Position numbers and translations under genes: made by a program. DNA of 64,000 bases, taken from the IMG/VR virus record IMGVR_UViG_3300032247_000689, positions 31,816 through 95,815 of that record. One strand, 5' to 3'. The notes beneath the pieces were generated by a model, which saw only the letters and a list, made by a program, of their open reading frames with translations, was not told the origin of the DNA and made no database searches. Positions 7,169-18,308 of the stretch are shown here, one piece after another. Numbering within the stretch: the stretch's first letter is position 1; the number at the start of each line of letters is the position of its first letter. Origin of the DNA: a virus (lineage: Duplodnaviria; Caudoviricetes).

Positions 7169-7286
7169 TTAGTATTAAACGCAGGTACGGCTATCTCTCT
7201 CTTCCTAAAACCAATAAAAGAAAGTGAAAGGTCTTGACCGCCCTTAGCATGGAAAGGGTGTGCTTTAACGCCCAATACTATAGGGA

Positions 7287-7442
7287 TTAAATCTCTTCTT
7301 CGTCGTCCTCTTCTTCATCATCACAGAGGCAATCATCTCCACACTCTCCGCAATCGAAGCATTGGTCATCTTCCCACTCTTCAAGGTCATCTTCATCTTC
7401 AAGTTCAATCTCTTCAATATCAGGGGTTACTTCATCAGCCAC
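7287..7442 (-). CDS. Extremely acidic 51-aa Cys-containing protein (start GTG 7442)
   Basis: 30 of 51 residues are D/E with no K/R; CxxCxxC..CxC. Confidence 0.6.
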   Translation of the reverse strand: MADEVTPDIEEIELEDEDDLEEWEDDQCFDCGECGDDCLCDDEEEDDEEEI

Positions 7443-7446
7443 TCTC

Positions 7447-7734
7447 TTATGCCTCTCTCTTGAAGGATACTGTACCTGACCAAGACATAGGCTTGCCTTT
7501 AACATCAAGGTCTGCGCCAGCAATCATCTTGCAACTCTTTCTAGTTGTCATGGCTTGGACTCTCTCTTTAACCCAACGCTTGCCAGCACTAGCGTTAGAC
7601 CACGCTGTTTTTTCTACAACATAGCCTTCGTCAATTCCTTCATCTCTTACGCTAACGCTTGCTAACCATGCGCCACCCTTTTCAGGGTTCTTTTTTAGTG
7701 TTGCCTCGAATATAGCAGTTACTTTTCTAGCCAT
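7447..7734 (-). CDS. Hypothetical protein
   Basis: SD AAGGAG; in the operon chain. Confidence 0.7.
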   Translation of the reverse strand: MARKVTAIFEATLKKNPEKGGAWLASVSVRDEGIDEGYVVEKTAWSNASAGKRWVKERVQAMTTRKSCKMIAGADLDVKGKPMSWSGTVSFKREA

Positions 7735-8146
7735 TGTTATTCTCCTTTGTGACCCAATAGTACGGCATATCAGGCAATACGTTTGGGAACTTGTCTGAGT
7801 AGTATTCAGGGTTCTTTCTTATTAAGTTGCTTTGGTGAGATAGGTGAAGCCGTCTCTCTCCTAACCATGACGGTAGGATTACTCTACCATCATAGTTAAA
7901 TCTCTCTAGCATATTATCCGTGTAGCCACGCGCGCTCCACTCTATGCACATCTCTCTCCCATACTCTTTAAGCGCGCTCTCATAGCCCGCCCACATGAGT
8001 ACGGCAGGGTGGTTACGCCAGCCCTTTGTCTCTCCACGCAGGGCTCTTAATACTTGCCACGCTTCGACTCTCTGTTTACCTAGTCTCTTATAGTCCAGCA
8101 CTTGCGCCGTCTCTCTGAAACTAGGATAGGGAAGGAAGGTCTGCAC
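7727..8146 (-). CDS. Pyrimidine-dimer DNA glycosylase / endonuclease V-like protein (MSMEG_6728 family)
   Basis: MQTFLPY...LDYKRLGKQRVEAWQ...HPAVLMW...HLSHQSNLIRK. Confidence 0.8.
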   Translation of the reverse strand: MQTFLPYPSFRETAQVLDYKRLGKQRVEAWQVLRALRGETKGWRNHPAVLMWAGYESALKEYGREMCIEWSARGYTDNMLERFNYDGRVILPSWLGERRLHLSHQSNLIRKNPEYYSDKFPNVLPDMPYYWVTKENNNG

Positions 8147-8147
8147 G

Positions 8148-8300
8148 TTACGCCTCTAGGTATTGCACTATGACCCCAAGCGTTGTGTGTATAGCGCAAT
8201 CACAATCGCTCTCTTTATGGTCGTTGAAAGAATTAAAGTGTTCTAAATTATCCTCATAGATTACGTCAATAAGTTCGTTTATTGTATATAAATCACTCAT
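8148..8300 (-). CDS. Hypothetical 50-aa protein (not in the ORF track)
   Basis: MSDLYTINELID...YLEA fills the gap between two genes. Confidence 0.5.
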   Translation of the reverse strand: MSDLYTINELIDVIYEDNLEHFNSFNDHKESDCDCAIHTTLGVIVQYLEA

Positions 8301-8301
8301 C

Positions 8302-8742
8302 TTATCTCTCTCTCATACTGTTGAAGGCAATATCAACTGCGATATTAAACTTTATATCCATTTCCTCTGTCCACTCGATAGAGTTCATCTCTCCCCAGTT
8401 GATAAGGTTATGCTCATCTATGAAGTTATGAATCTCCAGCGCGGTATCCTCATTAACGGATAACATCTTACCTATCCACATGGTAAAGATATTCGTTTGG
8501 TGCGGTTTGCGTGTAGGCACTTCATAATCGTTGCAGATAGCGTCCACTAGGGCTACCCCTGCTATGTCTCTCTTGCTCCCCACATAGGTAAGGCGCAATC
8601 CTGAATCGGATAGGGCTTGAAGTACAGTTATATATTCTATATCTACATTTATATCTTTGTTAAGTTTGATTAGTTCTTCTAGCCTTATACCTAGTACGCA
8701 AGCGTAATCCTTCTGCGCAGTAACCTTATCGTTGTCGTTCAT
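8302..8742 (-). CDS. Hypothetical protein
   Basis: SD AAGGAG upstream. Confidence 0.65.
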   Translation of the reverse strand: MNDNDKVTAQKDYACVLGIRLEELIKLNKDINVDIEYITVLQALSDSGLRLTYVGSKRDIAGVALVDAICNDYEVPTRKPHQTNIFTMWIGKMLSVNEDTALEIHNFIDEHNLINWGEMNSIEWTEEMDIKFNIAVDIAFNSMRER

Positions 8743-8784
8743 ACTTCTCCTTCGATATTGGTCGAGTTACACTCGGCGCACTCA

Positions 8785-8910
8785 TTACATCTCATCTTTC
8801 TTATGCTTCCGTTTCCTAGTGTATCGCTTCTTATTCTTTATGGGGGTAGCGGAATTACTACGGCGTAACTCTAATAAACGGCGTAGTTCCTCTGCTGACT
8901 TCTTAAACAT
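8785..8910 (-). CDS. Basic 41-aa protein with an ArfA-like C-terminal motif (not in the ORF track)
   Basis: MFKKSAEELRRLLELRRSNSATPIKNKKRYTRKRKHKKDEM; SD AAGGA. Confidence 0.6.
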   Translation of the reverse strand: MFKKSAEELRRLLELRRSNSATPIKNKKRYTRKRKHKKDEM

Positions 8911-8930
8911 CTTTCCTTATCCTTTGTTAG

Positions 8931-9009
8931 ATAACCCTAGCGCGTACTACGTCCTTAGTGTGTCGAACGGTACGTTGCAAGTCAATTCGCGTAATCGCGC
9001 TAGGGTTAT
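8931..9009. repeat. 14-bp perfect inverted repeat enclosing a promoter-like spacer
   Basis: ATAACCCTAGCGCG (8931-8944) / CGCGCTAGGGTTAT (8996-9009). Confidence 0.75.
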
Positions 9010-9012
9010 TCT

Positions 9013-9173
9013 GTAACTCAATAGGTACTGCGCTTTCGTGTCTATCATTTACTCGATACTATGCTGGCGAAACTATACTGCTGGTTACGGCTATCATAGT
9101 TTTCACCGTAATCCGTCGCGTTGTTATGGAGTAAGACCCTGTTTCATAGGCTAGACCAATCCTATTAAGTAAC
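9013..9173 (-). ncRNA. Putative structured RNA, unit A of a tandem pair
   Basis: Closing stem GUUACUUAAUAGG/CCUAUUGAGUUAC; shares UAGGAUUGGUC and CGCAGUACCUA with unit B. Confidence 0.5.
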
Positions 9174-9179
9174 TTTGCA

Positions 9180-9338
9180 CCCCGTTAGGTACTGCGACAC
9201 CATAGTTCACTCGAATCTATTACATAAACTCATTGGAACACTTTTGCTAATTGCCTATTGCCTTATTAAAGATAGCCCATGCCTATCTCATTGGGGCTCA
9301 CGTTCGCCATGTGGGGCTCTTGACCAATCCTAACGGGG
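9180..9338 (-). ncRNA. Putative structured RNA, unit B of a tandem pair
   Basis: Closing stem CCCCGUUAGG/CCUAACGGGG; same conserved 11-mers; length 159 vs 161 nt. Confidence 0.5.
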
Positions 9339-9358
9339 AATCCTCTATGTAGTTTTAT

Positions 9359-9973
9359 TTACCAACTCGCTTGGTAGTGGTAATCGTACTCTCCCTCAAT
9401 ATCACTCGCAAGTATTGAGTTAATCGTCTCTGCTGTCTCTGCAAGTTCACGATAGTAATACTCGTCCTTATCGGTACTACCGAAAAAGAATCCTGATACG
9501 GGTGGGATAGGGTCATCGCCTTCATCAAGGATAACCCTACTCGAACGCGCTGTCTCTTTGGCAAACGCTTCCATAATAGATTTGACCGTACTGTTCTCTG
9601 AACCCGAATCTATTGTATAAACTTCTGAATCTTGAGTAGGTACTGCCTTATGCCTATCCTGTAAGCCTACGACACACGCGTTACGCAACGCGATAAGGTC
9701 GTCTCTGCTCATTGAGATACGCTGGCACTCATCTACGCCGTTGGCGCAGTTGCGAACTATCCAACCGTGAATAGCGTTAGCCTTACGCCAATACGCTACG
9801 CACTTAGTAACTCTAACGCTACCGTATTCTGCGGTCGGTATCGAGTTTAGACCCGACGCTTCGATAACATTATCGTATTCAAGATTATCTTTGCGAGTCA
9901 TTTCGCCATTAACGCTCTCGAAGTCATACGCGCTTATGTGCTTCTCTGCATATAGGTACATATCTAATCCCAT
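9359..9973 (-). CDS. Conserved phage protein (MGLDMYL...YWRKANAIHGW...YQASW family)
   Basis: Recognisable widespread phage family of unknown function. Confidence 0.8.
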   Translation of the reverse strand: MGLDMYLYAEKHISAYDFESVNGEMTRKDNLEYDNVIEASGLNSIPTAEYGSVRVTKCVAYWRKANAIHGWIVRNCANGVDECQRISMSRDDLIALRNACVVGLQDRHKAVPTQDSEVYTIDSGSENSTVKSIMEAFAKETARSSRVILDEGDDPIPPVSGFFFGSTDKDEYYYRELAETAETINSILASDIEGEYDYHYQASW

Positions 9974-10104
9974 TTGTGTTTTCCTTTATTGTCTAATTGT
10001 TCGACGTCGCACCATACGAAGCCGTCCTGATGTCTAGTTATCTGTCCTAATATGTCGAACCATTGTTCGTCCACTTCGGCAGTAATTCTGAACGTGTCGG
10101 TCAT
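9964..10104 (-). CDS. Hypothetical 46-aa protein (not in the ORF track)
   Basis: MTDTFRITAEVDEQWFDILG...; ATGA coupling to the upstream ORF. Confidence 0.5.
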   Translation of the reverse strand: MTDTFRITAEVDEQWFDILGQITRHQDGFVWCDVEQLDNKGKHKWD

Positions 10105-10295
10105 AGGATTACCCTTCTGTTGTCCTCTAGGTAGAACATATAATCGAGCGCGGTCGTTATTAAATTGTTTAAGTTCGGTATATCTAACGCGGTATCCGCG
10201 CTATTTATTCCGTCCTGTAATCGAAGTAATACGTCCTTCATAAGTTTCGCGTAATCTACGGGAGACTCGTCGAAGGTAATCGTATCCTTGTCCAT
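10101..10295 (-). CDS. Hypothetical protein
   Basis: SD TAAGGAG. Confidence 0.6.
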   Translation of the reverse strand: MDKDTITFDESPVDYAKLMKDVLLRLQDGINSADTALDIPNLNNLITTALDYMFYLEDNRRVIL

Positions 10296-10407
10296 TAGAA
10301 CTCCTTACTGTTGTAGGTATATCCGCTAACCTTATTTGAGTTATGGATAATAGCAAGCGTTACGGCTACCGTGTATAGGGCTAGTACGCCTAGCCCTATC
10401 GCGGTAA

Positions 10408-12288
10408 TCATGCGACCCTGTTTGTGTTGAGCGTGGATTTGACTAGGCTCTGCGCCACTTCAAGAACGTCCTTTGGCTCGGCAACCGCGTGAAAGATACT
10501 CGCGCCATGATTTATACGCTTGATAGTGCTTCGCGCAGACTCGCCATAATCATCTCCGAGACGGCTCTGCTCTAATAATTCTTGGTAATACTTATATCCA
10601 CCTAAGAATACTACGCAAGTGATGAAGCCCTTATCGTTTAAGGATTTAATAATCGCGTTGCAATCATCGTCCATATCCCACTCGCCGTCGGTAACTATGA
10701 AGGCTAACTTTATCGAACGCTTGCTCATAGTGAGAATACGCTCTGCTTCAATTAAGCCACGAATAGGATTAGTGCTACCCGAAGCGTGGAGATAACGATA
10801 GGTACTAGGCTTAGCCTTGTCCTTCTTGTCATAGATAAGGCTACTCTCATGGTTGAAAGATATAGTAGTCACGTTGCCGTTGATACCTTCGATACCGCGC
10901 TTGATAATCCACGCGTTCTCCATGACCGAGCGCATGAGCCCACCCATACTGCTACTGTGGTCGGTTAAGATTACCGCTTCAATATCTGTATTAGGGTTAC
11001 CCGTATCCCATTGGTCGAACATGGTACGGATAGAGTTCACGTTAGGGCTCATGGTACGGGTGATATTTAACTTACCGCGCGCGTTAAACTTATCCCACTT
11101 AGGGTCGCCGTTGCGAACGATACGCTCTAATTCTTGACCGAAGCGACGGGCAATCGAGCGCGCTGACTCTGATACGCTCATCTCTGAACATGATACCTGC
11201 TTAACCGCACCGCGTACTTCGTCGCTATTAAGGATAGCCTTACGCGTTTCATTGACTTCGCGCTTGATAGTTTCGTTTTCCTTGATAGCCTTCATGCGGT
11301 TATTGAGTAACTTAGAGATAGCCTTATCTTTATCGTCGAACTCTACGTCCGCGCCTTCGTAAGTGCCGTCTCCACCCACGCCGACATTAGGATTATTACC
11401 GATAGTTTCGATAGGGTTATCCTTGTTCATGCGAGCGTTGCGTTCTTGTAAGCGTTCTTGCTCTGCGTTCTTTGCAGGACGACCCTTTACAGGGAACTCG
11501 CAACCGCCATGTGGGGGTAGGTGAATCTCACCCTGTTGCTCATCTAAGCCGACAATCTCTGCCATGCGAGCGATAAGCACCTTAGCCTTATCGAAGTCGG
11601 CAGGGAATACCAATACGCGATAGGCGTGGATAAGTGTGTGTAGTTCTTGCGCTAAGGCTACGCCATGAGTAGCGATAAACTCATCTGCAACCGCTTGGCG
11701 TACTTCGATAGGTAGATAGGTGCGACCCGTAATAATATGGAAGTAATTGCCAATCGTATCTTGATTATCGAGTAGGTACTGCGTGGTCGCGCTCTCTAGG
11801 AATAGTCGAGTCACGGGATATTTAGCCACTAGTAACGCTTCCGCGCGCGCTTCCTCTAGGATATAGGTTGCGCGACGGTACTTATTATCCTTGACATATT
11901 GGATAAGGTTACTTCCTGCGCGTGGCGAGAATAGAACGTGAGCGACTTCGTGGTAGTTGAGCCCGTGAAGGTGCATGATATTATCTTGAGATACATCTGC
12001 AATAAGGTTATCGTTAAATATAATCTCGCGACCGTTGCTCATAGCATTAGTTTCCATAGACGGGTCATTAACTACCGATACGGTTAGTTCAGAGTCGCCC
12101 GTGATAATTCTATCGGCGCGCTGATATACCGCGCTGATAGCGTTAAGGCGGTTAGCCCTATCCTGATAGTCGGCGAGAATATTCTCTCTAGTGCGACCGA
12201 ACTCGTCGGTCGCACCCCACCGTAAGTCTCCGCTTTCTAGGGCAGAGAGTTCATCGTTGTATCTAGCCCTAGCCACGAAGCACCTCAT
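10408..12288 (-). CDS. Zincin-motif + VWA domain protein (CobT-like partner of a MoxR ATPase)
   Basis: HEVAH (HExxH); MIDAS DHSSSM, T(NP), VTDG. Confidence 0.8.
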   Translation of the reverse strand: MRCFVARARYNDELSALESGDLRWGATDEFGRTRENILADYQDRANRLNAISAVYQRADRIITGDSELTVSVVNDPSMETNAMSNGREIIFNDNLIADVSQDNIMHLHGLNYHEVAHVLFSPRAGSNLIQYVKDNKYRRATYILEEARAEALLVAKYPVTRLFLESATTQYLLDNQDTIGNYFHIITGRTYLPIEVRQAVADEFIATHGVALAQELHTLIHAYRVLVFPADFDKAKVLIARMAEIVGLDEQQGEIHLPPHGGCEFPVKGRPAKNAEQERLQERNARMNKDNPIETIGNNPNVGVGGDGTYEGADVEFDDKDKAISKLLNNRMKAIKENETIKREVNETRKAILNSDEVRGAVKQVSCSEMSVSESARSIARRFGQELERIVRNGDPKWDKFNARGKLNITRTMSPNVNSIRTMFDQWDTGNPNTDIEAVILTDHSSSMGGLMRSVMENAWIIKRGIEGINGNVTTISFNHESSLIYDKKDKAKPSTYRYLHASGSTNPIRGLIEAERILTMSKRSIKLAFIVTDGEWDMDDDCNAIIKSLNDKGFITCVVFLGGYKYYQELLEQSRLGDDYGESARSTIKRINHGASIFHAVAEPKDVLEVAQSLVKSTLNTNRVA

Positions 12289-13153
12289 TGAAGTAGTTCA
12301 TATCTGCTTGGCGGTATCCCATAGACTCTAGGATATTGTCCTTATGTGTATCACACGCTAGGCGTACCCCACCGCGCTCCTCACGGTTGAAGCCATTAAC
12401 GAAGGACATAATTGCGAAGTCCACGTCGAAGTTGCGAGCGTTATTTATGAAGGCAACGAGCGAACGGGTTGAGATAGGGGTAGATAACTCCTCTTTAGCG
12501 TATTGCTCGCGAAGTTGGTCGGCTAGGATTAGAAGTGCTTTATTACCGACTACCTTGTTCTCGATAGCCCTATCGTAAGGGAACTCCAACTTAATATGGA
12601 AGCGGTCATTGAAGGCTTGGTTGAGTTCTTGTGTGCCTTTATAGCCATAGTTCATATCGGCTACGATTAGTAAGTCCTTATGCGCCTTGATTACTTCGCC
12701 ACCGTTCTCCAATAGTTGAATCTCACGGCGGTAATCGAGAAGTGAGAATAGGACGGTAGAGACACGGGTAGGGAGAAAGTTCACCTCATTGAGAAGTAAT
12801 ACGCCACCATGTCGGACGATTTGGGTAACTGCACCGTCCTGCCAACGATAACCCTGTCCGTCTGCGCGTGGAATCCATGCGCCGAATAGTTGAGAAGGGT
12901 CGATAGCATTAGAGTTCGATACATTGAAGTAACGCATACCCTTAGCCGAAGCATAACTCTGAACGGCGATAGTCTTACCGCTACCTGCTTCACCTTCGAT
13001 AAGGATATTAGTGCCGTCGGCAAGCGCGCGGTCAAAGATTTCCCACTCGGTTTTACGTCCGAAGTGGCGGTTGATATACCCGTGAGATAGAGATATATCG
13101 GGTACTGTAATCATGGAGTAGGTCATATCCTGCTCATTGGTCGTTGTATTCAT
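12269..13153 (-). CDS. MoxR/CbbQ/CobS-like AAA+ ATPase (start moved to ATG 13153)
   Basis: Walker A GEAGSGKT; WQDG; Walker B variant LLLNE; AFNDRF; STR sensor II; SD AGGAAGG. Confidence 0.85.
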   Translation of the reverse strand: MNTTTNEQDMTYSMITVPDISLSHGYINRHFGRKTEWEIFDRALADGTNILIEGEAGSGKTIAVQSYASAKGMRYFNVSNSNAIDPSQLFGAWIPRADGQGYRWQDGAVTQIVRHGGVLLLNEVNFLPTRVSTVLFSLLDYRREIQLLENGGEVIKAHKDLLIVADMNYGYKGTQELNQAFNDRFHIKLEFPYDRAIENKVVGNKALLILADQLREQYAKEELSTPISTRSLVAFINNARNFDVDFAIMSFVNGFNREERGGVRLACDTHKDNILESMGYRQADMNYFNEVLRG

Positions 13154-13205
13154 TGTGCCTTCCTGTGCGCCATTGGCGCGGTTATGGGTTTGCCTTACAT
13201 AGAGA

Positions 13206-13234
13206 AAGATAGGGGAAGGGATAGGTATAGGCAA
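13206..13234 (-). promoter_or_regulatory. SigA-type promoter of the MoxR-VWA operon
   Basis: TTGCCT-N17-TATCTT on the minus strand, downstream of an ATAAC pair at 13255/13266. Confidence 0.5.
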
Positions 13235-13496
13235 CTTCCTACTACGCGTGGAGTATAACGATTTGATAACGATTTCCTGCTCTCTCTGCCTCTCTTATCC
13301 GATAACTCTCCCCAACCGATAGCCCTAGACGTGGCTGTATCGCCATGCTCTCTCCACTACCATAGGTAGTAGCCGAAAGTCAATAGCGGAAAGGTGTGTT
13401 CTCTCTCACTCTCTAAGGTTAGCGGGCTCTCTCGCCTCTCTCGCGCAAAATTGTTATGAAATCGTTATAAATCTCTCGGCGTGTCGATTTGACAGA

Positions 13497-13612
13497 GTTT
13501 GTGTTGGTTAATAGCTAGCTATTAACCAATTAACAATAAGCCTAAGCTTATTGTTAACGGGGTTTAAGGGGTGTCCCCTGATAGGGTTATGGGTGGGTGG
13601 GTCAACACAAAC
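13497..13612. repeat. Branched palindromic element Y1 (divergent copy)
   Basis: GTTTGTGTTG...CAACACAAAC ends; 26-bp perfect palindrome 13504-13529; hairpin 13530-13557; G-tract 13584-13601. Confidence 0.75.
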
Positions 13613-13626
13613 ATTTCGCGCCCAAT

Positions 13627-13640
13627 GTTTCACGTGAAAC
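13627..13640. promoter_or_regulatory. parS-consensus site
   Basis: GTTTCACGTGAAAC, an exact 14-bp actinobacterial parS palindrome (15/16 to TGTTTCACGTGAAACA). Confidence 0.7.
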
Positions 13641-13730
13641 GGTGATAGCCCTAGCGCGCTAGGCACTAGGGCTATCGTTACCCTGTTTCCGAAAGGTTAG
13701 AAACTCAACAGGGCGCTAGGGGTAGACGAC

Positions 13731-14300
13731 CTACTCCCCCTTATCCCCGCGAATTACTCCGCGAAGGACATCTAATATGTTAGAGGGGAAATCGGTTGGT
13801 ACTGCCCCTGATTCAGTAAGGAGTTCAAGTGGGTCGTATTCACCTGAAAGTATCTTGTATGGGTCTAACTTAGAGAACTTATCCACCTTGCAGTTACTAC
13901 GAAGGAAGGCTGTCGCTAGGTCAGGTGCTTCCATCTCGAATTGGGAGATAAACCTACCCAATACGCCCATAGTAGAGAATAACTCCGCCGCATGACCGCA
14001 AGCCCATAGGATATTGCAAGCGATAGCGAGGGCGTACATATCGTCCTCGTTAGGCTTATCGTTCTGTATTACATTGGTAATCGCAGAGTTGGCTAGGGTT
14101 ACGCTCATTTTTTGACGGAACTCGAAGTCACCCTTGAGTGTTTGGCAAATAATTGCCGAATAGAGTTCAGGTTCGTGAAGGTCACGGGTAAGGTTAGGGA
14201 ACAACGGGTCAATGTTGTCCCCTTCCTCAATATCCTGCGCGTCAGGCAAGAGGTTAATAGTGGCGATAATCTCGTTAAAACGATACTTGAGGTCGCTCAT
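13731..14300 (-). CDS. Hypothetical protein
   Basis: 189-aa ORF, ATGA-coupled. Confidence 0.7.
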   Translation of the reverse strand: MSDLKYRFNEIIATINLLPDAQDIEEGDNIDPLFPNLTRDLHEPELYSAIICQTLKGDFEFRQKMSVTLANSAITNVIQNDKPNEDDMYALAIACNILWACGHAAELFSTMGVLGRFISQFEMEAPDLATAFLRSNCKVDKFSKLDPYKILSGEYDPLELLTESGAVPTDFPSNILDVLRGVIRGDKGE

Positions 14301-14788
14301 TGCTCGCTCACATCTGTATCGAAGTCAGAGTCATCTAACTCCCAAGAGTCGATGTCAATATCGTAACTACCTGACTCGCCCTTGTAGGAGATTGTCACGC
14401 TAATACTAGCCTCGATGTCAGCGTCCTCTAGGACTATTTCACCTGCGCGTTCCTCGTTCTCGGCTTCTACGTCCTCGAACTCGGCAACTGTGTACCCCTT
14501 GTAATTAACGGCAACTGTGAACTTGCGCATTAGGGTTTCAATGTTATCCCAACCTAAGCGGTCAGCGATAGTGTTATAGGTCTCGATGGCTTCATCGTTG
14601 GTAAGTGTGCCGTTGTCGGCTAGGTCGCGGAGTGCGCCAAGAACGCCCTCTGCGTGTGTGGCGTTAAGGTTGTCCTTAGCGCGCTGGATACGAAGGTCTA
14701 CATCTGCGTAGGCTTCGTTTACTGCCTTAGTTGTCTGTGCTACCACATCATCTGCGGTAAAGAACAACTGTGTCTGTTCGTATGACAT
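14297..14788 (-). CDS. Acidic hypothetical protein
   Basis: D/E-rich C-terminal half; first gene after a cassette promoter. Confidence 0.7.
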   Translation of the reverse strand: MSYEQTQLFFTADDVVAQTTKAVNEAYADVDLRIQRAKDNLNATHAEGVLGALRDLADNGTLTNDEAIETYNTIADRLGWDNIETLMRKFTVAVNYKGYTVAEFEDVEAENEERAGEIVLEDADIEASISVTISYKGESGSYDIDIDSWELDDSDFDTDVSEQ

Positions 14789-14832
14789 TTGTACTGCTTC
14801 CTGTGGGTGGTCGTTATCCCACTACCTGATTT

Positions 14833-14921
14833 AACCATACTCTCCCCCTCTCTATTCCAACTCTTTTATAACGATTTGATAACGAAAAGATAACATTTCG
14901 TTATTCTCAGCCAACTCTCAG
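14833..14921 (-). promoter_or_regulatory. Cassette promoter: GGAAT-N18-GTT + ATAAC array + TCTCAG-N5-TCTCAG
   Basis: Promoter 14833-14858; ATAAC at 14868/14879/14890, GTTAT at 14900; TCTCAG at 14905/14916. Confidence 0.7.
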
Positions 14922-14931
14922 GAATCTCCCA

Positions 14932-15018
14932 TGTTTGTGTTGGTTTATTAGCAAAATATGACGTGTCATATTTTGCAGACATAGCTGCTATGTCTGCGCT
15001 AATAAACCAACACAAACA
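14932..15018. repeat. Three-way-junction (T/Y-shaped) element Y2
   Basis: 21-bp outer stem enclosing abutting hairpins 14953-14974 and 14975-14997; all Watson-Crick pairs. Confidence 0.9.
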
Positions 15019-15019
15019 A

Positions 15020-15049
15020 TAAGCCTAGCGGGGGAAGCCGCTAGGCTTA
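15020..15049 (-). terminator. Terminator-like hairpin after the DUF3846 gene
   Basis: TAAGCCTAGCGG/CCGCTAGGCTTA; the U-rich tail is supplied by the Y2 arm. Confidence 0.65.
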
Positions 15050-15057
15050 CTGCTGAC

Positions 15058-15435
15058 TTATGAAAAGGATACGAACCCTGGCGCGTTGGTATTCCATATT
15101 TGGCTATCGTATTTGAGGAAGTAATCTACTTGCTCATCGGATAATCCTAGTGTGTAGCCCTCATCATCTGCGCCACCTGTGATAATGACATCGCCCATGA
15201 TTACATCTGACATATCGTACATATCAACCCATAGCGCGGTTGCGGTTGGGTTTTGAGTTAGCCCGCTAAACTTTCCGTTCTCGTTGAGCCACATATCAGG
15301 TTGGCTAGGCTTATCGTGTAGAGAGACACACTCAATCATGCCACCTACGGCTTCAGATAGAACTTCGTAACAGGTATCGTTGGTGAACTCAACCACAGAC
15401 TTCTCACCTGTGGTCGTAATCTTAATTGCTTTCAT
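15058..15435 (-). CDS. DUF3846-like protein (start moved to ATG 15435)
   Basis: LSEAVGGMIECV...WLNENGK...NPTAT...IMGDVIITG; SD GAAAGG. Confidence 0.75.
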   Translation of the reverse strand: MKAIKITTTGEKSVVEFTNDTCYEVLSEAVGGMIECVSLHDKPSQPDMWLNENGKFSGLTQNPTATALWVDMYDMSDVIMGDVIITGGADDEGYTLGLSDEQVDYFLKYDSQIWNTNAPGFVSFS

Positions 15436-15583
15436 CGGGTTTCCTTTCGGTCGGGGTGTGGGGTGGATAGCCCTAGACTTGGCTCTAGGGCTATCCTGCA
15501 ACCTGCTGACCCGTAGCGGTTGCGAGATAGGCAATTACGGCTTGTACTGGCTCGGATAGCCTATCCCAAACTTAATGCGGGTC

Positions 15584-15889
15584 TTACTTCTTTACTCCAA
15601 GAGTTTTGCGGAGATTCTTAATGCGCTCATAGAGAGTGCCTTCGGATACTCCTAGTGATTCAGCCATAAGGCTAATAGGTAGCCCTGCCTTGTGTGCTTG
15701 CCATGTAATGGCGTCGCGGTTGATGATGGCTTCCTTAAGAGCCACATCTGCTTCAACTAGGCTTTGGCAGAACTGTGCTTTCTGCTCTAGGCTTAGTTTT
15801 GACTTGCGGTACTTGCGCGTAGGTGCTTTACCTGTCGCGCGCGCTGTACGGATACGCTCCTTCAGCGCGTCTATGTCCTTGTGTGACAT
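15584..15889 (-). CDS. Helix-turn-helix DNA-binding protein
   Basis: GLPISLMAESLGVSEGTLYERIK. Confidence 0.7.
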   Translation of the reverse strand: MSHKDIDALKERIRTARATGKAPTRKYRKSKLSLEQKAQFCQSLVEADVALKEAIINRDAITWQAHKAGLPISLMAESLGVSEGTLYERIKNLRKTLGVKK

Positions 15890-15930
15890 ATATTCTCTTT
15901 CCGTGAGGGGTCGTTCTCACTATCTAATAG

Positions 15931-16002
15931 AACCACACCTCTGCGGATTCTCTTTCACTTTTTTGATAACGATTCGGTAACAATCTCATAACGAAATGTT
16001 AT
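15931..16002 (-). promoter_or_regulatory. Cassette promoter (variant GAAAG-N18-GTT) + ATAAC array
   Basis: ATAAC 15966, GTAAC 15977, ATAAC 15988, GTTAT 15998. Confidence 0.6.
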
Positions 16003-16005
16003 AAA

Positions 16006-16096
16006 TGTTTGTGTTGGGGTTTATATGCAAAAAATAACGTGTTATTTTTTGCAGACATGGCTTCCATGTCTGCGCATATAAACCCCAACACAAACA
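16006..16096. repeat. Three-way-junction element Y3
   Basis: 23-bp outer stem; hairpins 16029-16050 and 16051-16073. Confidence 0.9.
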
Positions 16097-16099
16097 AGA

Positions 16100-16125
16100 C
16101 AGCCCCAGCCTTTCGGCTGGGGCTG
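16100..16125 (-). terminator. Terminator hairpin after the DUF932 gene
   Basis: CAGCCCCAGCC-GAAA-GGCTGGGGCTG on the minus strand, followed by TCTTGTTT. Confidence 0.75.
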
Positions 16126-16140
16126 CTTTATAACGTTTCG

Positions 16141-17088
16141 TTATAGTGCCATTACGGCTTCTAGAACCCGCGCCTTTTCTTGCTGGATTCCAGTCTCGAA
16201 TCCACTAGCGGCAACTGCCATGCCCTCTGTCATAGGGTTATCGCCATTGCGGTACCAGTCGATTCTTTCGGTGAGCGCGTTAAGCGCGCCCCACTTAGTG
16301 CCAGTAATATTGGCGTTAGTTGGAGATGAGACATAGAGCCCACGAGTGAGGTCGAATTTTGCTTCCCACTTAGTAAGTTGAGCCTTCTTATCGTCCTCGG
16401 GCTTTGGATAGATAGTCTCGAATACCTTGTCGAATTGCGCGGTTGTGATTGGTGTCTGGTAAAGACCCTGTGCGATTGCATCGAATTCATCTAAGTAAGC
16501 ATGTGTGAGCGCAAGAGCCTCGCGCGCTTCTGTGATTCTGCCCTGTGTGCCTTGAGTGTGGCGAACAGACCATGATTGCTTAGCGCGCTTGAAGGCTAGG
16601 CTTAGCGTATTTTGGCAGATAACGCGAACAGGCGTTACACATGCGCGGATTGAACTAGAGCCGTCATGTGATGATGAAACTAAGAGATATGTCTTAGTTG
16701 TGTCATTTGCGCCAGTTGGGTCGATTGTAAACTCGCGGTCGATTGTGAGCGCACCGAAGATTGTGCGACCCTTGCGGAAGAAACCTGCGGATTCCCATTG
16801 GGCTCCGCCGTCAAGAAGATTGTCGCCGAAAGCGAGTAAATCCTCATTTTGGTATACATCGTATTTTTCGCCTACGATTGCGAGAGATTCCACGCCGTTA
16901 GGGGTATCGCGTAGCACCATATATTCATTAGAGAGAGGCTTGACGCCAGTTGGGTAATTTACAGGCTCCTTGCGGACATTCCAGTTGGCAAGACCTGCGC
17001 GGTTGAGCATTTCGCTCGTTGTGACATGCTCATTAGGGCGGAAAATCTCCCGCGCTAATGTGTGCCACGTTGGTGTGCGTAGTGACAT
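16141..17088 (-). CDS. DUF932-family phage/plasmid protein (start moved to ATG 17088)
   Basis: WH.L, AGLANWNV, VGEKYDVYQNE, YLLVSSSHDGS, TPVRVICQNTL, VRHT, GTKWGALNALTE. Confidence 0.85.
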   Translation of the reverse strand: MSLRTPTWHTLAREIFRPNEHVTTSEMLNRAGLANWNVRKEPVNYPTGVKPLSNEYMVLRDTPNGVESLAIVGEKYDVYQNEDLLAFGDNLLDGGAQWESAGFFRKGRTIFGALTIDREFTIDPTGANDTTKTYLLVSSSHDGSSSIRACVTPVRVICQNTLSLAFKRAKQSWSVRHTQGTQGRITEAREALALTHAYLDEFDAIAQGLYQTPITTAQFDKVFETIYPKPEDDKKAQLTKWEAKFDLTRGLYVSSPTNANITGTKWGALNALTERIDWYRNGDNPMTEGMAVAASGFETGIQQEKARVLEAVMAL

Positions 17089-17134
17089 TTTTAACCTTTC
17101 GATATTGCTAGCCCTATGGCTAGGCACCCAATAT

Positions 17135-17245
17135 AACCTAATACGCGGTAGTGCTATTCCACTCTCACATAACGATTAGATAACGATTCCATAACATTTC
17201 GTTATACAGGTATCTCTCAGGAAACTCTCAGGATTCTCCTCTCAG
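17135..17245 (-). promoter_or_regulatory. Cassette promoter: GGAAT-N18-GTT + ATAAC array + TCTCAG repeats
   Basis: Promoter 17135-17160; ATAAC at 17169/17180/17191, GTTAT at 17201; TCTCAG at 17215/17226/17240. Confidence 0.7.
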
Positions 17246-17252
17246 CTGAAAA

Positions 17253-17343
17253 TGTTTGTGTTGGGCTGTATATGAAAAATATGCATGGCATATTTTTGCA
17301 AAGACCGCTTCGCGACTTTGCCATATACAGCCCAACACAAACA
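17253..17343. repeat. Three-way-junction element Y4
   Basis: 22-bp outer stem; hairpins 17275-17297 and 17298-17321. Confidence 0.88.
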
Positions 17344-17345
17344 AG

Positions 17346-17377
17346 TTATCCACAGGCGGGGAAGTGCCTGTGGATAA
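17346..17377. promoter_or_regulatory. Inverted pair of consensus DnaA boxes
   Basis: TTATCCACA (17346-17354) and TGTGGATAA (17369-17377) within a 12-bp inverted repeat. Confidence 0.65.
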
Positions 17378-17585
17378 GTTAGCCGCCGCGAAAAAGGTTA
17401 GGGAAAACGCGGCGGCTAAGGCTAGGTTGTGCTATTCCAGCACTCGTCACAAGTAAAGCCATCTGGATATGCGTCTGGAAGTATTGGCGTTAGTACAGAC
17501 CCATCAGGGAGCTTCTTTGCGCACTTCATACAGATTAGTGAGCCTTCCGCGTCCTCAACGCCGATAAGCCTAGTGAACGGAGTAA

Positions 17586-17774
17586 TCACGCTGGCACCCA
17601 TGTAGTCCAGCGCGTTTCAAGGTTATCCTGCAAGAGGCGTAACCTTACGCTACCTGTGCGATTGCGTACCTTCTCGACTACAAAGCCTACTTCTTTAGAT
17701 TGCTCGGTTTCGTATAGGTCGCCAATCTCGGGCTCGAAATTGAGTGGCAAGATGTGGTCGGTGAGTATTGCCAT
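17586..17774 (-). CDS. Hypothetical small beta-rich protein
   Basis: SD GAAAGG; in the operon chain. Confidence 0.6.
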   Translation of the reverse strand: MAILTDHILPLNFEPEIGDLYETEQSKEVGFVVEKVRNRTGSVRLRLLQDNLETRWTTWVPA

Positions 17775-17927
17775 TTATTTATTCCTTTCGTAATGGAAGT
17801 CACAGATTGTGGCGTCCGCGTCTATTGAGTAGTGACAATTAGTTTTTACTGTGTGGTGAGTGTAATGAAAGTGGGCGAGCCCTGCAAGGGTGGCTATTGC
17901 CACCCCTGCAAGAATTACGCGCTTCAT
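17775..17927 (-). CDS. Small membrane/secreted protein, 50 aa (not in the ORF track)
   Basis: MKRVILAGVAIATLAGLAHFHY...; ATGA coupling. Confidence 0.5.
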   Translation of the reverse strand: MKRVILAGVAIATLAGLAHFHYTHHTVKTNCHYSIDADATICDFHYERNK

Positions 17928-18082
17928 GGTTTCAATCCAAATTGCTCAACGACAGTCTTAGTACATTCCTCAATTCCCGAAATCTTGCCTTCTGTGTAGG
18001 CAATCTCGATAATGTGCGCCACTAGATTAGTGGTAGTGGTATCTAGGCTCGCTTCTGCGAGTAGGGCTAGGGCTTGCTTCAT
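17924..18082 (-). CDS. Hypothetical 52-aa protein, first gene of the island (not in the ORF track)
   Basis: SD GAAAGG; MKQALALLAEASL... Confidence 0.55.
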   Translation of the reverse strand: MKQALALLAEASLDTTTTNLVAHIIEIAYTEGKISGIEECTKTVVEQFGLKP

Positions 18083-18128
18083 GTTCGTAACCTTTCGTTA
18101 TGAAGGCGTTGTTGCCTTCAACTACTAT

Positions 18129-18247
18129 AACCGAGAGCGCGCTAGTGCTATTCCCACTATATATAACGAAATGATAACGATTAGATAACAATATGTTATA
18201 CAGCCTGCTCTCAGGTACCCCCCAGGGTTAACTCAGACAATTCTCAG
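18129..18247 (-). promoter_or_regulatory. Cassette promoter: GGAAT-N18-GTT + ATAAC array + four 11-bp-spaced TCTCAG-like boxes
   Basis: Promoter 18129-18154; ATAAC at 18163/18174/18185, GTTAT at 18195; boxes at 18209/18220/18231/18242. Confidence 0.7.
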
Positions 18248-18308
18248 GAACGGGGCCAGGAAACATCCGCACCTATTACATAGTTCTATAGGCAGTAGCC
18301 CTTTTTGC

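What the first reader, a model, noticed from the sequence alone, without database searches (positions are those of the whole stretch)
14932..17343. Three perfect T/Y-shaped three-way-junction elements with invariant TGTTTGTGTTG ends and full covariation
Seen: Y2 (14932-15018), Y3 (16006-16096) and Y4 (17253-17343) each have a 21-23 bp outer stem beginning TGTTTGTGTTGG. It encloses two abutting hairpins of 22-24 nt with zero unpaired bases at the junction: an A-tract/T-tract arm (AAAATATGAC, AAAAAATAAC, AAAAATATGC) and a GCA-starting arm. Sequences diverge, but nearly every change is compensated (one internal loop in Y4). There are no G-T pairs and loops are only 1-3 nt; on the minus strand Y4 carries the ultra-stable DNA mini-hairpin GCGAAGC and Y3 carries G-AAG-C. 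This favours a DNA (cruciform or ssDNA) structure over RNA. Established: the fold matches the rabbit-ear ends of parvovirus ITRs and Streptomyces linear-replicon telomeres, and N4 virion RNAP uses hairpins with 3-nt loops. Inference: possible roles are injection pause signals, priming or resolution sites, recombination joints for shuffling early-gene cassettes, or decoys for structure-sensing defence proteins.
Basis: partly seen in the sequence, partly recalled or inferred. Interest (0 to 1): 0.88.

Follow-up and report, generated by a model that had tools for sequence, protein, structure and literature searches.

The report
Palindromic spacers between phage early genes
A family of 60-140 bp perfect DNA palindromes with fixed 11-12 bp ends sits after a terminator and before the next promoter throughout the early-gene block of a group of uncultured freshwater phages. 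The elements are real, conserved and undescribed, but the three-armed shape seen here is a local variant and their job is still unknown.

Summary
Y2, Y3 and Y4 fold on either strand into fully paired three-way junctions (DNA dG -36.6 to -41 kcal/mol, z about -13).

They belong to a larger family ("E elements"). I found 67 distinct copies in about 35 viral contigs of one myovirus family: capsid protein 87-94% identical, 72% to Streptomyces phage BRock. No convincing copies turned up in 185,000 bacterial species genomes.

What is conserved is not the junction. It is an 11-12 bp terminal inverted repeat plus, in half the copies, a copy-specific 18-25 bp perfect stem (757/757 Watson-Crick pairs, no G-T). 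The three-way junction occurs only in this genome and one relative.

Every genome carries 4-7 copies in one syntenic early block. Each typically lies between an intrinsic terminator, whose T-tail usually runs into the left end, and the next promoter region (a DnaA box in most relatives, then 11-bp-phased repeats).

Sub-lineages use variant ends, sometimes flipped. No integrase, DDE transposase or giant virion RNA polymerase is encoded.

Best reading (about 0.4): a DNA-level, hairpin- or cruciform-prone boundary element whose ends are bound by a protein. Telomere-like and N4-promoter readings fail their membership tests. The cassette-shuffling role is only partly supported.

Other first-reader notes of this scan cover the same stretch of this genome. 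None concern other DNA.

The parts
17253..17343 (-). E element Y4: 22-bp outer stem plus two hairpin arms (three-way junction), upstream of the DUF932 gene
   Evidence: Fold on both strands, z about -13. Orthologous to L004:10316-10407.
16006..16096 (-). E element Y3: 23-bp outer stem plus two arms, between DUF932 and the HTH-like gene
   Evidence: Orthologous to L004:11618-11714.
14932..15018 (-). E element Y2: 21-bp outer stem plus two arms. By interior identity (0.84) and a shared first arm it is the closest paralogue of Y3.
   Evidence: and sequences.
13496..13613 (-). E element Y1, class B: 10-bp ends only. Interior has two perfect hairpins and a C-rich run (G4-like on the + strand). Lies upstream of the CobS-like AAA_5 gene.
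   Evidence: The same class sits at the same syntenic place in G002, L007, L019, L017 and L030. The 13588-13625 segment is 90-97% identical in relatives whose genes are about 67% identical.
17346..17377 (-). Terminator-like hairpin made of two inverted perfect DnaA boxes. Its T-tail runs into the left end of Y4.
   Evidence: sequence.
16099..16126 (-). GC-rich terminator-like hairpin whose T-tail is the left end of Y3
15021..15048 (-). GC-rich terminator-like hairpin whose T-tail is the left end of Y2
   Evidence: sequence.
17154..17245 (-). Promoter region downstream of Y4: CTGAGAG repeats, a 15-bp ATAAC..GTTAT palindrome, two TCGTTAT repeats 11 bp apart, and GGAAT-N18-GTT
14852..14921 (-). 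The same promoter-region architecture downstream of Y2
15966..16002 (-). GTTAT-type repeats downstream of Y3
16141..17088 (-). DUF932 gene, the cassette between Y4 and Y3
   Evidence: PF06067, 3e-49.
15058..15889 (-). HTH-like 101-aa gene plus DUF3846 gene, the cassette between Y3 and Y2. Not found at this position in the relatives mapped.
13731..14788 (-). Two conserved ORFan genes (163 and 189 aa), the cassette between Y2 and Y1

Best explanation
Y2-Y4 are members of a phage-family-specific class of cis-acting DNA palindromes ('E elements'). They punctuate the early-gene block as part of a composite intergenic cassette: gene stop, intrinsic terminator, E, host-type boxes (a DnaA box in most relatives, then 11-bp-phased direct repeats), promoter, 5'UTR hairpin, next gene.

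I propose that they act on DNA, not as RNA. The 11-12 bp ends would be a sequence-specific protein site present twice in inverted orientation. The copy-specific perfect stem would let the two ends pair within one strand, as a hairpin on single-stranded DNA or a cruciform under the negative supercoiling generated behind RNA polymerase at the adjacent promoter. The resulting protein-clamped structure would work as a boundary that isolates each early promoter from the unit upstream, by blocking read-through or sliding polymerase and by absorbing torsion.

The three-way junction of this genome is a derived way of pairing the whole interior. It minimises the unpaired loop and should make extrusion easier. 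As a by-product, the repeated cassettes supply homology for reshuffling early genes.

Shown: family, conservation, context, strand symmetry and clade restriction. Inferred: protein binding, extrusion in vivo and the insulating effect.
For: 1. Real, structured and repeated.
2. There are 67 distinct copies. Stem length is bimodal: 36 copies have 18-25 bp uninterrupted Watson-Crick stems (757 pairs, no G-T). At positions 11-18, 288 of 288 pairs are complementary, against 156 +/- 9 when partner arms are swapped between copies, and there are 23 distinct extensions.
3. Variant ends are compensated in both arms: position 8 T>C in four class-A copies and position 9 in one. L018 and L007 have identical interiors but a T:A to A:T swap in the stem.
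4. Position is fixed. The element follows a terminator-like hairpin, usually within a few nt. In 27 of 36 long-stem copies a DnaA box lies 1-33 nt downstream, always in one orientation, against 2 upstream (element orientation was partly set by these motifs).
5. Each genome has 4-7 copies, all in one syntenic block, in genomes whose genes are only 65-75% identical at DNA level.
6. Interiors are rich in structure-prone DNA: perfect sub-palindromes, GT alternation, G-run/C-run tracts and AT-rich cores.
7. The ends are conserved while interiors diverge. In sub-lineages the end motif occurs in either orientation relative to the palindrome centre, as expected for a duplex protein site.
8. The scan of 185,579 species genomes gave 26 hits against roughly 17 expected by chance (my estimate). 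Only one has an extended stem preceded by the family's full end motif, and it lies on a 91.9 kb phage-sized contig.
Against: - No binding protein is identified. The early-block proteins are ORFans.
- Palindromes interrupted by 30-50 unpaired bases extrude poorly from duplex DNA (established biophysics), so many family members may form hairpins only when single-stranded.
- Distances from E to the DnaA box and promoter vary, which argues against a precisely phased promoter element.
- BRock shares the genome plan but shows no E-like palindrome in its first 50 kb. One natural variant (L009) has lost the class-B copy. The element is therefore not indispensable.
- Perfect stems can be kept perfect by template-switch correction of quasi-palindromes during replication. 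The covariation therefore does not by itself prove selection for structure.
Confidence: 0.4

Rival explanations
1. Recombination module. The repeated terminator-E-promoter cassettes, or E itself as a folded single-strand site in the manner of integron attC, are primarily the joints at which early-gene cassettes are excised, inserted and permuted. The phage's own UvsX-like recombinase or an unknown structure-specific enzyme would catalyse this.
For: - Cassette order permutes between E copies. A 140-aa gene lies before DUF932 in L017 and L030 but after it in G005. The HTH-like gene lies before DUF932 in L004 but after it here.
- The cassette not seen at this position in relatives is flanked by the two most similar copies, Y3 and Y2.
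- The phage encodes a UvsX-like recombinase.
- The attC-like anatomy matches: 57-141 bp, conserved inverted ends, variable and sometimes branched middle.
- There is a PeSL precedent in T4-type phages (PMC2839356, PMC4122927).
Against: - The genome encodes no tyrosine recombinase and no DDE integrase.
- Stems are perfect, without the extrahelical bases attC needs.
- Every cassette has its own promoter.
- Both recent indels I could map have breakpoints outside the repeat ends: a 1.84 kb deletion in G002 and a 116-nt loss of E in L009.
- No joints were seen in public contigs, though contigs are weak evidence.
- In L004 the HTH-like gene sits inside an operon, not in an E-flanked cassette.
Confidence: 0.15
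2. Single-strand-stage function. E folds only when the early block is single-stranded and serves as a priming, helicase-loading or origin-like signal. Or, together with the adjacent DnaA boxes, it stalls or anchors the first-entering DNA, as proposed for the T5 injection stop region.
For: - Long stems with large loops suit ssDNA hairpins better than cruciforms.
- DnaA boxes adjoin most copies. In Y4's case they form a hairpin stem, recalling DnaA-box hairpin primosome sites (established knowledge).
- In T5-like phages, DnaA boxes are paired with inverted repeats in the untranslated first-step-transfer region (bioRxiv 10.1101/866236, a hypothesis paper).
- In BRock the equivalent oppositely oriented block lies at the left end of the linear record.
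- The phage has its own DnaB-like helicase and polymerase.
Against: - Four to seven copies spaced by single genes, each tied to a terminator and a promoter, fit transcription units better than replication or entry signals.
- In most relatives the DnaA box is outside the stem, so it would be single-stranded and unbound in that state.
- The physical ends of this genome are unknown; the record closes on a 123-bp repeat.
Confidence: 0.15
3. RNA element. Polymerases that read through the terminator transcribe E. Its 20-bp duplex is then an RNase III site or a back-up, U-tract-independent terminator that separates early transcripts.
For: - E sits directly after terminators.
- A perfect duplex of 20 bp or more is an RNase III substrate.
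- T7 early RNA is cut at intergenic hairpins, and actinobacterial terminators often lack U-tracts (both established knowledge).
Against: - No G-U pairs in 757 stem pairs, and equal folds on both strands.
- Nothing near any Rfam threshold.
- The left arm doubles as the terminator's T-tail, so most transcripts should end before E.
- Flipped-end variants and short-end class-B copies have no long RNA stem.
- Conserved end sequences are not needed for either RNA role.
Confidence: 0.1
4. Selfish miniature inverted-repeat element that has spread into terminator-proximal sites and is merely tolerated.
For: - Terminal inverted repeats starting TGT and ending ACA, as in many DDE transposon ends (established knowledge).
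- Size of 60-140 bp and a variable interior.
- Presence/absence difference between genomes that are 97-98% identical.
- No E-like palindrome in the first 50 kb of the cultured relative BRock.
Against: - No target-site duplications.
- No rve-type DDE transposase/integrase or tyrosine recombinase in the phage.
- Copies are not scattered. They occupy the same syntenic junctions in genomes only 65-75% identical, with consistent orientation.
- The ends stay conserved where an orphan element would decay.
- The L009 loss is an imprecise deletion, not an excision.
Confidence: 0.07
5. Telomere or ITR-like replication ends, or N4-type hairpin promoters for a virion RNA polymerase.
For: The T/Y-shaped fold and GNA-type 3-nt loops in Y3 and Y4.
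Against: - The copies are internal and multiple.
- The fold is not conserved in relatives.
- No ORF exceeds 949 aa, so there is no N4-like virion polymerase.
- Promoter-like motifs lie downstream of E, not in it.
Confidence: 0.02

Closest known systems
PeSL cassettes (promoter-early stem-loop) of T4-type phages (PMC2839356, PMC4122927)
   Same: Small composite terminator/promoter modules repeated between short early genes of unknown function in a plastic region. They are associated with gene gain, loss and reordering.
   Different: A PeSL is only a promoter plus a terminator stem-loop. It has no separate 60-140 bp palindrome with conserved inverted ends and no DnaA boxes. PeSL mini-circles were shown experimentally; nothing comparable is shown here.
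Integron attC sites
   Same: The size range is the same. Only the inverted ends are conserved, the centre is variable and sometimes branched, and structure rather than sequence is kept. The sites lie between gene cassettes.
   Different: attC pairing is imperfect, with extrahelical bases that pick the strand, and it needs an IntI tyrosine recombinase. Integron cassettes lack promoters. Here stems are perfect, no PF00589 protein is encoded and every cassette has a promoter.
REP/BIME and other bacterial intergenic palindromes (Correia/NEMIS, ERIC, RUP)
   Same: Extragenic palindromic repeats at the 3' ends of transcription units. Proposed roles include supercoiling (gyrase binding), termination and RNA processing.
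   Different: Those are chromosomal, dispersed in tens to hundreds of copies, usually transcribed, and imperfect. E is confined to one block of one phage family, lies in apparently untranscribed spacers and is perfectly paired.
Injection-stop (iss) repeat region of T5-like phages (bioRxiv 10.1101/866236)
   Same: Conserved untranslated DNA in the early region of a lytic phage in which inverted repeats and palindromes are paired with DnaA boxes. It is more conserved than the neighbouring genes.
   Different: T5 has one or two large repeat regions, not one element per intergenic junction. It shares no sequence and has no terminator-promoter context. Its mechanism is itself only a hypothesis.
17-bp dyad repeats of Cluster O mycobacteriophages (PMC4351075)
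   Same: A function-unknown, invariant dyad-symmetric repeat in many intergenic sites of an actinobacteriophage group.
   Different: Those are 17 bp with a 3-bp spacer, occur more than 30 times across the whole genome, and have no long copy-specific stem or structured interior.
Parvovirus ITRs / Streptomyces linear-replicon telomeres
   Same: The T/Y-shaped three-way DNA fold with short loops, in the three copies of this window.
   Different: Those sit at molecule ends and prime or patch end replication. E is internal and multicopy, and its three-way fold is absent from most family members.

Membership tests
Parvovirus ITR / Streptomyces telomere 'rabbit ears' | Located at the physical ends of a linear replicon | tested here: not met
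   The copies lie at 45.3-49.2 kb of a 95.8 kb record, 4 per genome. The true physical ends were not mapped.
Parvovirus ITR / Streptomyces telomere 'rabbit ears' | The three-way fold is conserved across relatives | tested here: not met
   Among the copies folded or inspected (67 catalogued plus ~25 further ones seen) only 5 show it: 3 here and 2 in L004. The closest relatives have plain hairpins.
N4-type hairpin promoters | Giant virion RNA polymerase encoded by the phage | tested here: not met
   The largest ORFs are 949 and 841 aa (tail fibre, unknown). No sigma region 2 either.
N4-type hairpin promoters | 5-7 bp stem with a 3-nt loop and conserved flanks, with transcription starting just downstream | tested here: not met
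   The arms are 9-10 bp with non-conserved loops. Genes start 90-250 nt further on, behind separate promoter-like motifs.
Integron attC | IntI-type tyrosine recombinase in the element | tested here: not met
   PF00589 is absent from the 95.8 kb genome, while the control genomes all ring.
Integron attC | Imperfect pairing with extrahelical bases and R/L boxes (RYYYAAC..GTTRRRY) | tested here: not met
   Stems are perfect and the ends differ from the R-box consensus.
Integron attC | Conserved inverted ends, variable centre, position between cassettes | tested here: met
MITE | Target-site duplication and dispersed, non-syntenic copies | tested here: not met
   The flanks show no duplication, and the copies are syntenic and clustered.
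MITE | Cognate transposase with matching ends somewhere | tested here: inconclusive
   No PF00665 in the phage. The bacterial species scan gave only chance-level hits. Other transposase families were not searched.
PeSL-type regulatory cassette | Repeated terminator plus early promoter module flanking small early genes | tested here: met
   Terminator-like hairpins and repeated promoter-region motifs occur at the junctions with E in this window. Activity was not tested.
PeSL-type regulatory cassette | Indels and replacements between close relatives break in the cassette | tested here: inconclusive
   Order permutes at cassette resolution, but the two mapped recent indels break elsewhere.
RNase III site / structured RNA | Strand-specific structure (G-U pairs, one strand folds better) and transcription of the element | tested here: not met
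   No G-T in 757 pairs, equal dG on both strands, and no Rfam family. Transcription itself is not testable: no RNA run was listed.
Cruciform-forming palindrome | Extrusion from supercoiled duplex DNA | not testable with these tools
   This needs nuclease or chemical probing of supercoiled clones.

The most novel reading that the evidence does not exclude
E elements are protein-clamped cruciform or hairpin switches: a new kind of cis-regulatory DNA device in lytic phages. The torsional state of the incoming genome and host factors bound next door (DnaA, response-regulator-type repeats) would decide whether each early cassette fires. The same folded sites would serve as integrase-independent, structure-specific joints that let early or anti-host genes be exchanged as promoter-carrying cassettes.
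Probability: 0.12. Interest if true: 0.85.

Novelty: new variant of a known kind. Interest (0 to 1): 0.6.

Why it matters
Early regions of lytic phages hold most of the unknown host-takeover and anti-defence genes, and how they are wired and exchanged is poorly understood.

This is a sharply defined non-coding element that is more conserved than the genes around it. It is maintained as a perfect palindrome on both strands and tied to terminators, DnaA boxes and phased repeats.

If it is a structural DNA boundary or a recombination joint, it would give a concrete, testable case of non-B DNA used for gene regulation or modular evolution in a virus. It would also provide a marker for finding early-gene cassettes in metagenomes. 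If it merely persists by palindrome-correcting replication errors, it is still a clean natural example of that process.

Tried and rejected
- Near-identity DNA search of the region against GenBank phages: no match.
- Rfam at a permissive threshold: only generic hairpin (miRNA-precursor) matches at 23-29 bits against cut-offs of 74-97.
- Bacterial/archaeal species genomes scanned for paired ends: 26 hits against roughly 17 expected by chance (my estimate). 24 have exactly the 10 searched pairs. Of the two with longer stems, only L053 (stem 22, full end motif) looks real.
- Public runs: no RNA holder listed. Contigs of four DNA runs laid on the region show no joints, and short contigs simply end at the palindromes, an assembly effect.
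- The DnaA-box and terminator counts use element orientations that were set partly by those same motifs, so they overstate the asymmetry somewhat.
- Looked for a partner protein:
  - Pfam/PHROGs on 19 early-block proteins gave only DUF932, DUF3846, AAA_5, a pyrimidine-dimer glycosylase, two function-unknown PHROG matches, a sub-threshold HTH and a sub-threshold Use1 hit.
  - Atlas look-alikes for the two conserved ORFans all scored 0.80 or below, or TM below 0.5.
- Hoped to contrast E-plus and E-minus genomes of one family. The E-minus DUF932 carriers turned out to be unrelated phages with no capsid homologue, so no phyletic contrast was possible.
- BRock and LuckySocke lack the 10-mer and the CobS-like gene. 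BRock's first 50 kb has only two ordinary hairpins.
- RNAalifold on the MAFFT alignment recovered only the outer stem because the inner arms were out of register.
- Considered and dropped:
  - invertible promoter segment: the interior orientation is constant;
  - protelomerase site: it has a long spacer and is multicopy;
  - single-strand promoter in the stem: no -35/-10 spacing fits;
  - Chi-like sites: only a G-rich bias.
- A literature search found no description of these elements.


Full report
THE OBSERVATION

- The 11-nt end motif occurs 13 times in the window at up to one mismatch, against 1.84 expected; no shuffle reaches that.
- As single-stranded DNA, each element folds on either strand into a 21-23 bp outer stem enclosing two abutting hairpins with no unpaired junction base. 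dG is -36.6 to -41 kcal/mol, z about -13, and 0 of 200 shuffles fold as well.
- Loops are 3-4 nt in the computed folds rather than 1-3.
- A fourth, divergent copy (Y1, 13496-13613) shares only the 10-bp ends.

GENOME AND LOCAL CONTEXT

The window is 31816-95815 of a 95.8 kb IMG/VR virus record closed by a 123-bp repeat.

Gene content:
- It is a myovirus with terminase, portal, capsid, sheath and collagen-like fibres. It also encodes ribonucleotide reductase, a DpdA-like transglycosylase, a DnaB-like helicase, PolA and a UvsX-like recombinase.
- Its capsid protein is 72% identical to Streptomyces phages BRock and LuckySocke. The DUF932 protein matches mostly actinobacteriophages. The host is therefore probably an actinobacterium (inference).

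Organisation:
- Long ORFs lie almost entirely on the + strand, except an 11-kb block (window about 7.2-18.2 kb) read on the minus strand.
- Read in that direction, each of the three intervals has the same order: gene stop; GC-rich hairpin; a T-tail that runs into the left end of the element; the element; CTGAGAG repeats (after Y4 and Y2); an ATAAC..GTTAT palindrome; TCGTTAT repeats 11 bp apart; a GGAAT-N18-GTT motif (after Y4 and Y2); then the ribosome site and start codon.
- The terminator scan finds the three hairpin-plus-T-tail sites directly abutting Y2, Y3 and Y4.
- On this reading the elements lie in spacers that should be largely untranscribed.

THE FAMILY

Size and stem classes:
- An exact-pattern scan of IMG/VR returned 29 loci. 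With syntenic regions fetched from five complete relatives, I catalogued 67 distinct elements.
- Stem length is bimodal. 36 copies have uninterrupted Watson-Crick outer stems of 18-25 bp. 31 have only the 8-12 bp ends, with asymmetric interiors.
- In the long stems, 757 of 757 pairs are Watson-Crick, with no G-T. Beyond the shared ends, positions 11-18 are complementary in 288 of 288 cases, against 156 +/- 9 when arms are swapped between copies. There are 23 different extensions.

Compensated changes:
- Even the 'invariant' ends covary. Four long-stem copies carry C instead of T at position 8 in both arms, and one changes position 9 in both.
- Orthologues L018 and L007 have identical interiors but a T:A to A:T swap in the stem.
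- One natural copy (L005) shows a single uncompensated mismatch.

Interiors:
- They are diverse: none, one or two hairpins, GT alternation, G-run/C-run tracts, AT-rich cores and a recurrent AGCT-containing motif.
- The fully paired three-way junction exists only in this genome and in two copies of L004, which are orthologues of Y4 and Y3.
- The closest DUF932 relative (L073) has 61-67 nt plain hairpins.

CONTEXT AND DISTRIBUTION IN RELATIVES

- Each relative has 4-7 copies confined to one block, between the same conserved genes... E DUF932 E x E 163-aa gene E 189-aa gene E(short-end class) CobS-like ATPase. The genes themselves are only 65-75% identical in DNA.
- In most cases the left end follows a terminator-like hairpin within a few nt. 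In 27 of 36 long-stem copies a consensus DnaA box follows 1-33 nt after the right end, always in the same orientation (element orientation was partly set by these motifs).
- A profile search with DUF932 gave 80 more loci. Most carry no such palindromes, and none of the 12 I tested has a homologous capsid gene, so these are different phages that only share DUF932.
- Contigs of the same capsid family (87-94% identity) do carry the elements, but some sub-lineages use variant ends. L128 has seven plain hairpins with 23-39 bp stems in 5.9 kb. In L081, L100, L128 and L091 the end motif is sometimes flipped relative to the palindrome centre. The core GTTGG..CCAAC is constant.
- The context is the same there: terminator, element, 11-bp-phased direct repeats, promoter.
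- BRock has the same genome plan, with the oppositely oriented block at the left end of its linear record. It lacks the motif, and its first 50 kb has no long interrupted palindromes.
- A scan of one genome for each of 185,579 prokaryotic species gave 26 hits against roughly 17 expected by chance (my estimate). 24 show exactly the 10 searched pairs. L058 (stem 17) lacks the family's extended end. L053 (stem 22) looks real and lies on a 91.9 kb phage-sized contig.
- The element is therefore a trait of one sub-family of phages, not a host site.

WHAT THE ELEMENT IS NOT

- No Rfam family comes near threshold.
- The genome encodes no tyrosine recombinase, no rve-type integrase, no sigma region 2 and no ORF above 949 aa. 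Integron-type, DDE-transposon-type and N4-type mechanisms therefore lack their enzymes.
- There are no target-site duplications.
- The copies are internal and multiple, so the ITR/telomere analogy is a resemblance of shape only, and only for the five junction-type copies.

DYNAMICS

- Cassette order differs between relatives at element resolution. A 140-aa gene is upstream of DUF932 in L017 and L030 and downstream in G005. The HTH-like gene is upstream in L004 and downstream here, where it is flanked by the two most similar copies, Y3 and Y2.
- The two recent events I could map at base resolution do not use the repeat ends. G002 carries a 1.84 kb deletion from inside one gene to the next terminator. 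L009, 97-98% identical to G002, lacks the short-end copy through an imprecise 116-nt deletion.
- Public contigs show no joints, and no RNA run holds the region.

INTERPRETATION

Three points indicate a constraint on DNA, or on both strands, rather than on one RNA:
- the perfect, strand-symmetric pairing;
- the compensated end variants;
- the placement in non-transcribed spacers.

The sequence conservation of the ends, and their occurrence in either polarity, point to a duplex-binding protein. The copy-specific stem points to intrastrand pairing.

My best model (0.4) is a protein-recognised, hairpin- or cruciform-prone boundary element between early transcription units. The three-way junction of this genome would be a derived form that pairs the whole interior.

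Caveats:
- Palindrome-correcting template switching can keep stems perfect without selection (established mutational mechanism).
- Large unpaired interiors disfavour extrusion from duplex DNA.
- No partner protein emerged.
- The element is dispensable in at least one natural variant.

Rivals are a primarily recombinational role (0.15), a single-strand-stage or entry role linked to DnaA (0.15), an RNA role (0.10), a selfish element (0.07) and telomere- or N4-like roles (0.02).

COMPARISON WITH KNOWN SYSTEMS AND NOVELTY

The nearest described systems are:
- PeSL terminator/promoter cassettes of T4-type phages;
- integron attC sites;
- REP/BIME-type palindromes;
- the DnaA-box-rich repeat region of T5-like phages;
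- the 17-bp dyad repeats of Cluster O mycobacteriophages.

None combines conserved inverted ends, a long copy-specific perfect stem, a variable structured interior and a fixed place between terminator and DnaA box or promoter. I found no description of this family in the literature searched. I rate it a new variant of a known kind (phage intergenic palindromic or regulatory repeats), with real but unresolved function.

Noticed in passing
window 13627-13640: A perfect 14-bp palindrome matching the chromosomal parS consensus lies 13 bp from Y1. The same palindrome lies next to an E copy in L025/G005. No parAB was looked for.
   Followed up: partly
window 17346-17377; relatives L005-L032: The terminator-like hairpin before Y4 is built from two inverted perfect DnaA boxes. 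In relatives a DnaA box follows the element instead, and several intervals carry two to four boxes (L014, L019, L027, L113).
   Followed up: partly
window 13255-13272, 14868-14885, 15966-15994, 17169-17186, 18163-18180; L081 and L100 after each element: Direct repeats phased 11 bp apart lie upstream of each early promoter. Here they are TCGTTAT; in most relatives GTTAT-N6-GTTAT; in L081 and L100 GTTTACC-N4-GTTCACC. The last resembles actinobacterial PhoP (PHO box) repeat units, suggesting response-regulator-type control of the phage early genes.
   Followed up: no
window 14833-14858, 17135-17160, 18129-18154 (minus strand): GGAAT-N18-GTT, an ECF-sigma-type spacing, occurs upstream of three early genes here but is not conserved in relatives. 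Those relatives share a different box (ATAGTACTAGCGCG-like). No sigma factor gene was detected in the phage.
   Followed up: partly
window 13581-13602 (+ strand), inside Y1: Four G-runs form a G-quadruplex-type motif next to the right end. The run plus end motif is the best conserved non-coding stretch of the block (90-97% identity in relatives). It also occurs as a solo half-element after the first terminator of the block in G002, L007, G005 and L030.
   Followed up: partly
window 7200-18250 versus the rest; BRock NC_048650.1 1-12130: This is the only minus-strand block of the genome. In the cultured relative BRock the equivalent oppositely oriented block occupies the left end of the linear record. 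The block may therefore be next to a physical genome end and enter the cell first.
   Followed up: partly
L009 around 4070 versus G002 (L038/L037); L009 2142-3979: Two indels separate genomes that are 97-98% identical. One is loss of a 109-bp element by an imprecise 116-nt deletion. The other is a 1.84 kb deletion removing one element and three genes.
   Followed up: yes
L053 (CAITUP010000138.1, 91.9 kb): A contig binned into an Acetobacteraceae MAG carries an E-like element with a 22-bp stem and has phage-genome size. It is probably a mis-binned phage contig.
   Followed up: no
window 10419-10429 and syntenic sites in G002, G004, L009: A solo copy of the right-end motif is found at or just after the 3' end of the 626-aa gene here and in G002, L009 and G004.
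   Followed up: partly
window 12269-13234 and 10408-12288: An AAA_5 (CobS/MoxR-like) ATPase is followed by a 626-aa protein with no family hit. The pair is conserved in all E-bearing relatives examined but absent from BRock and LuckySocke.
   Followed up: partly
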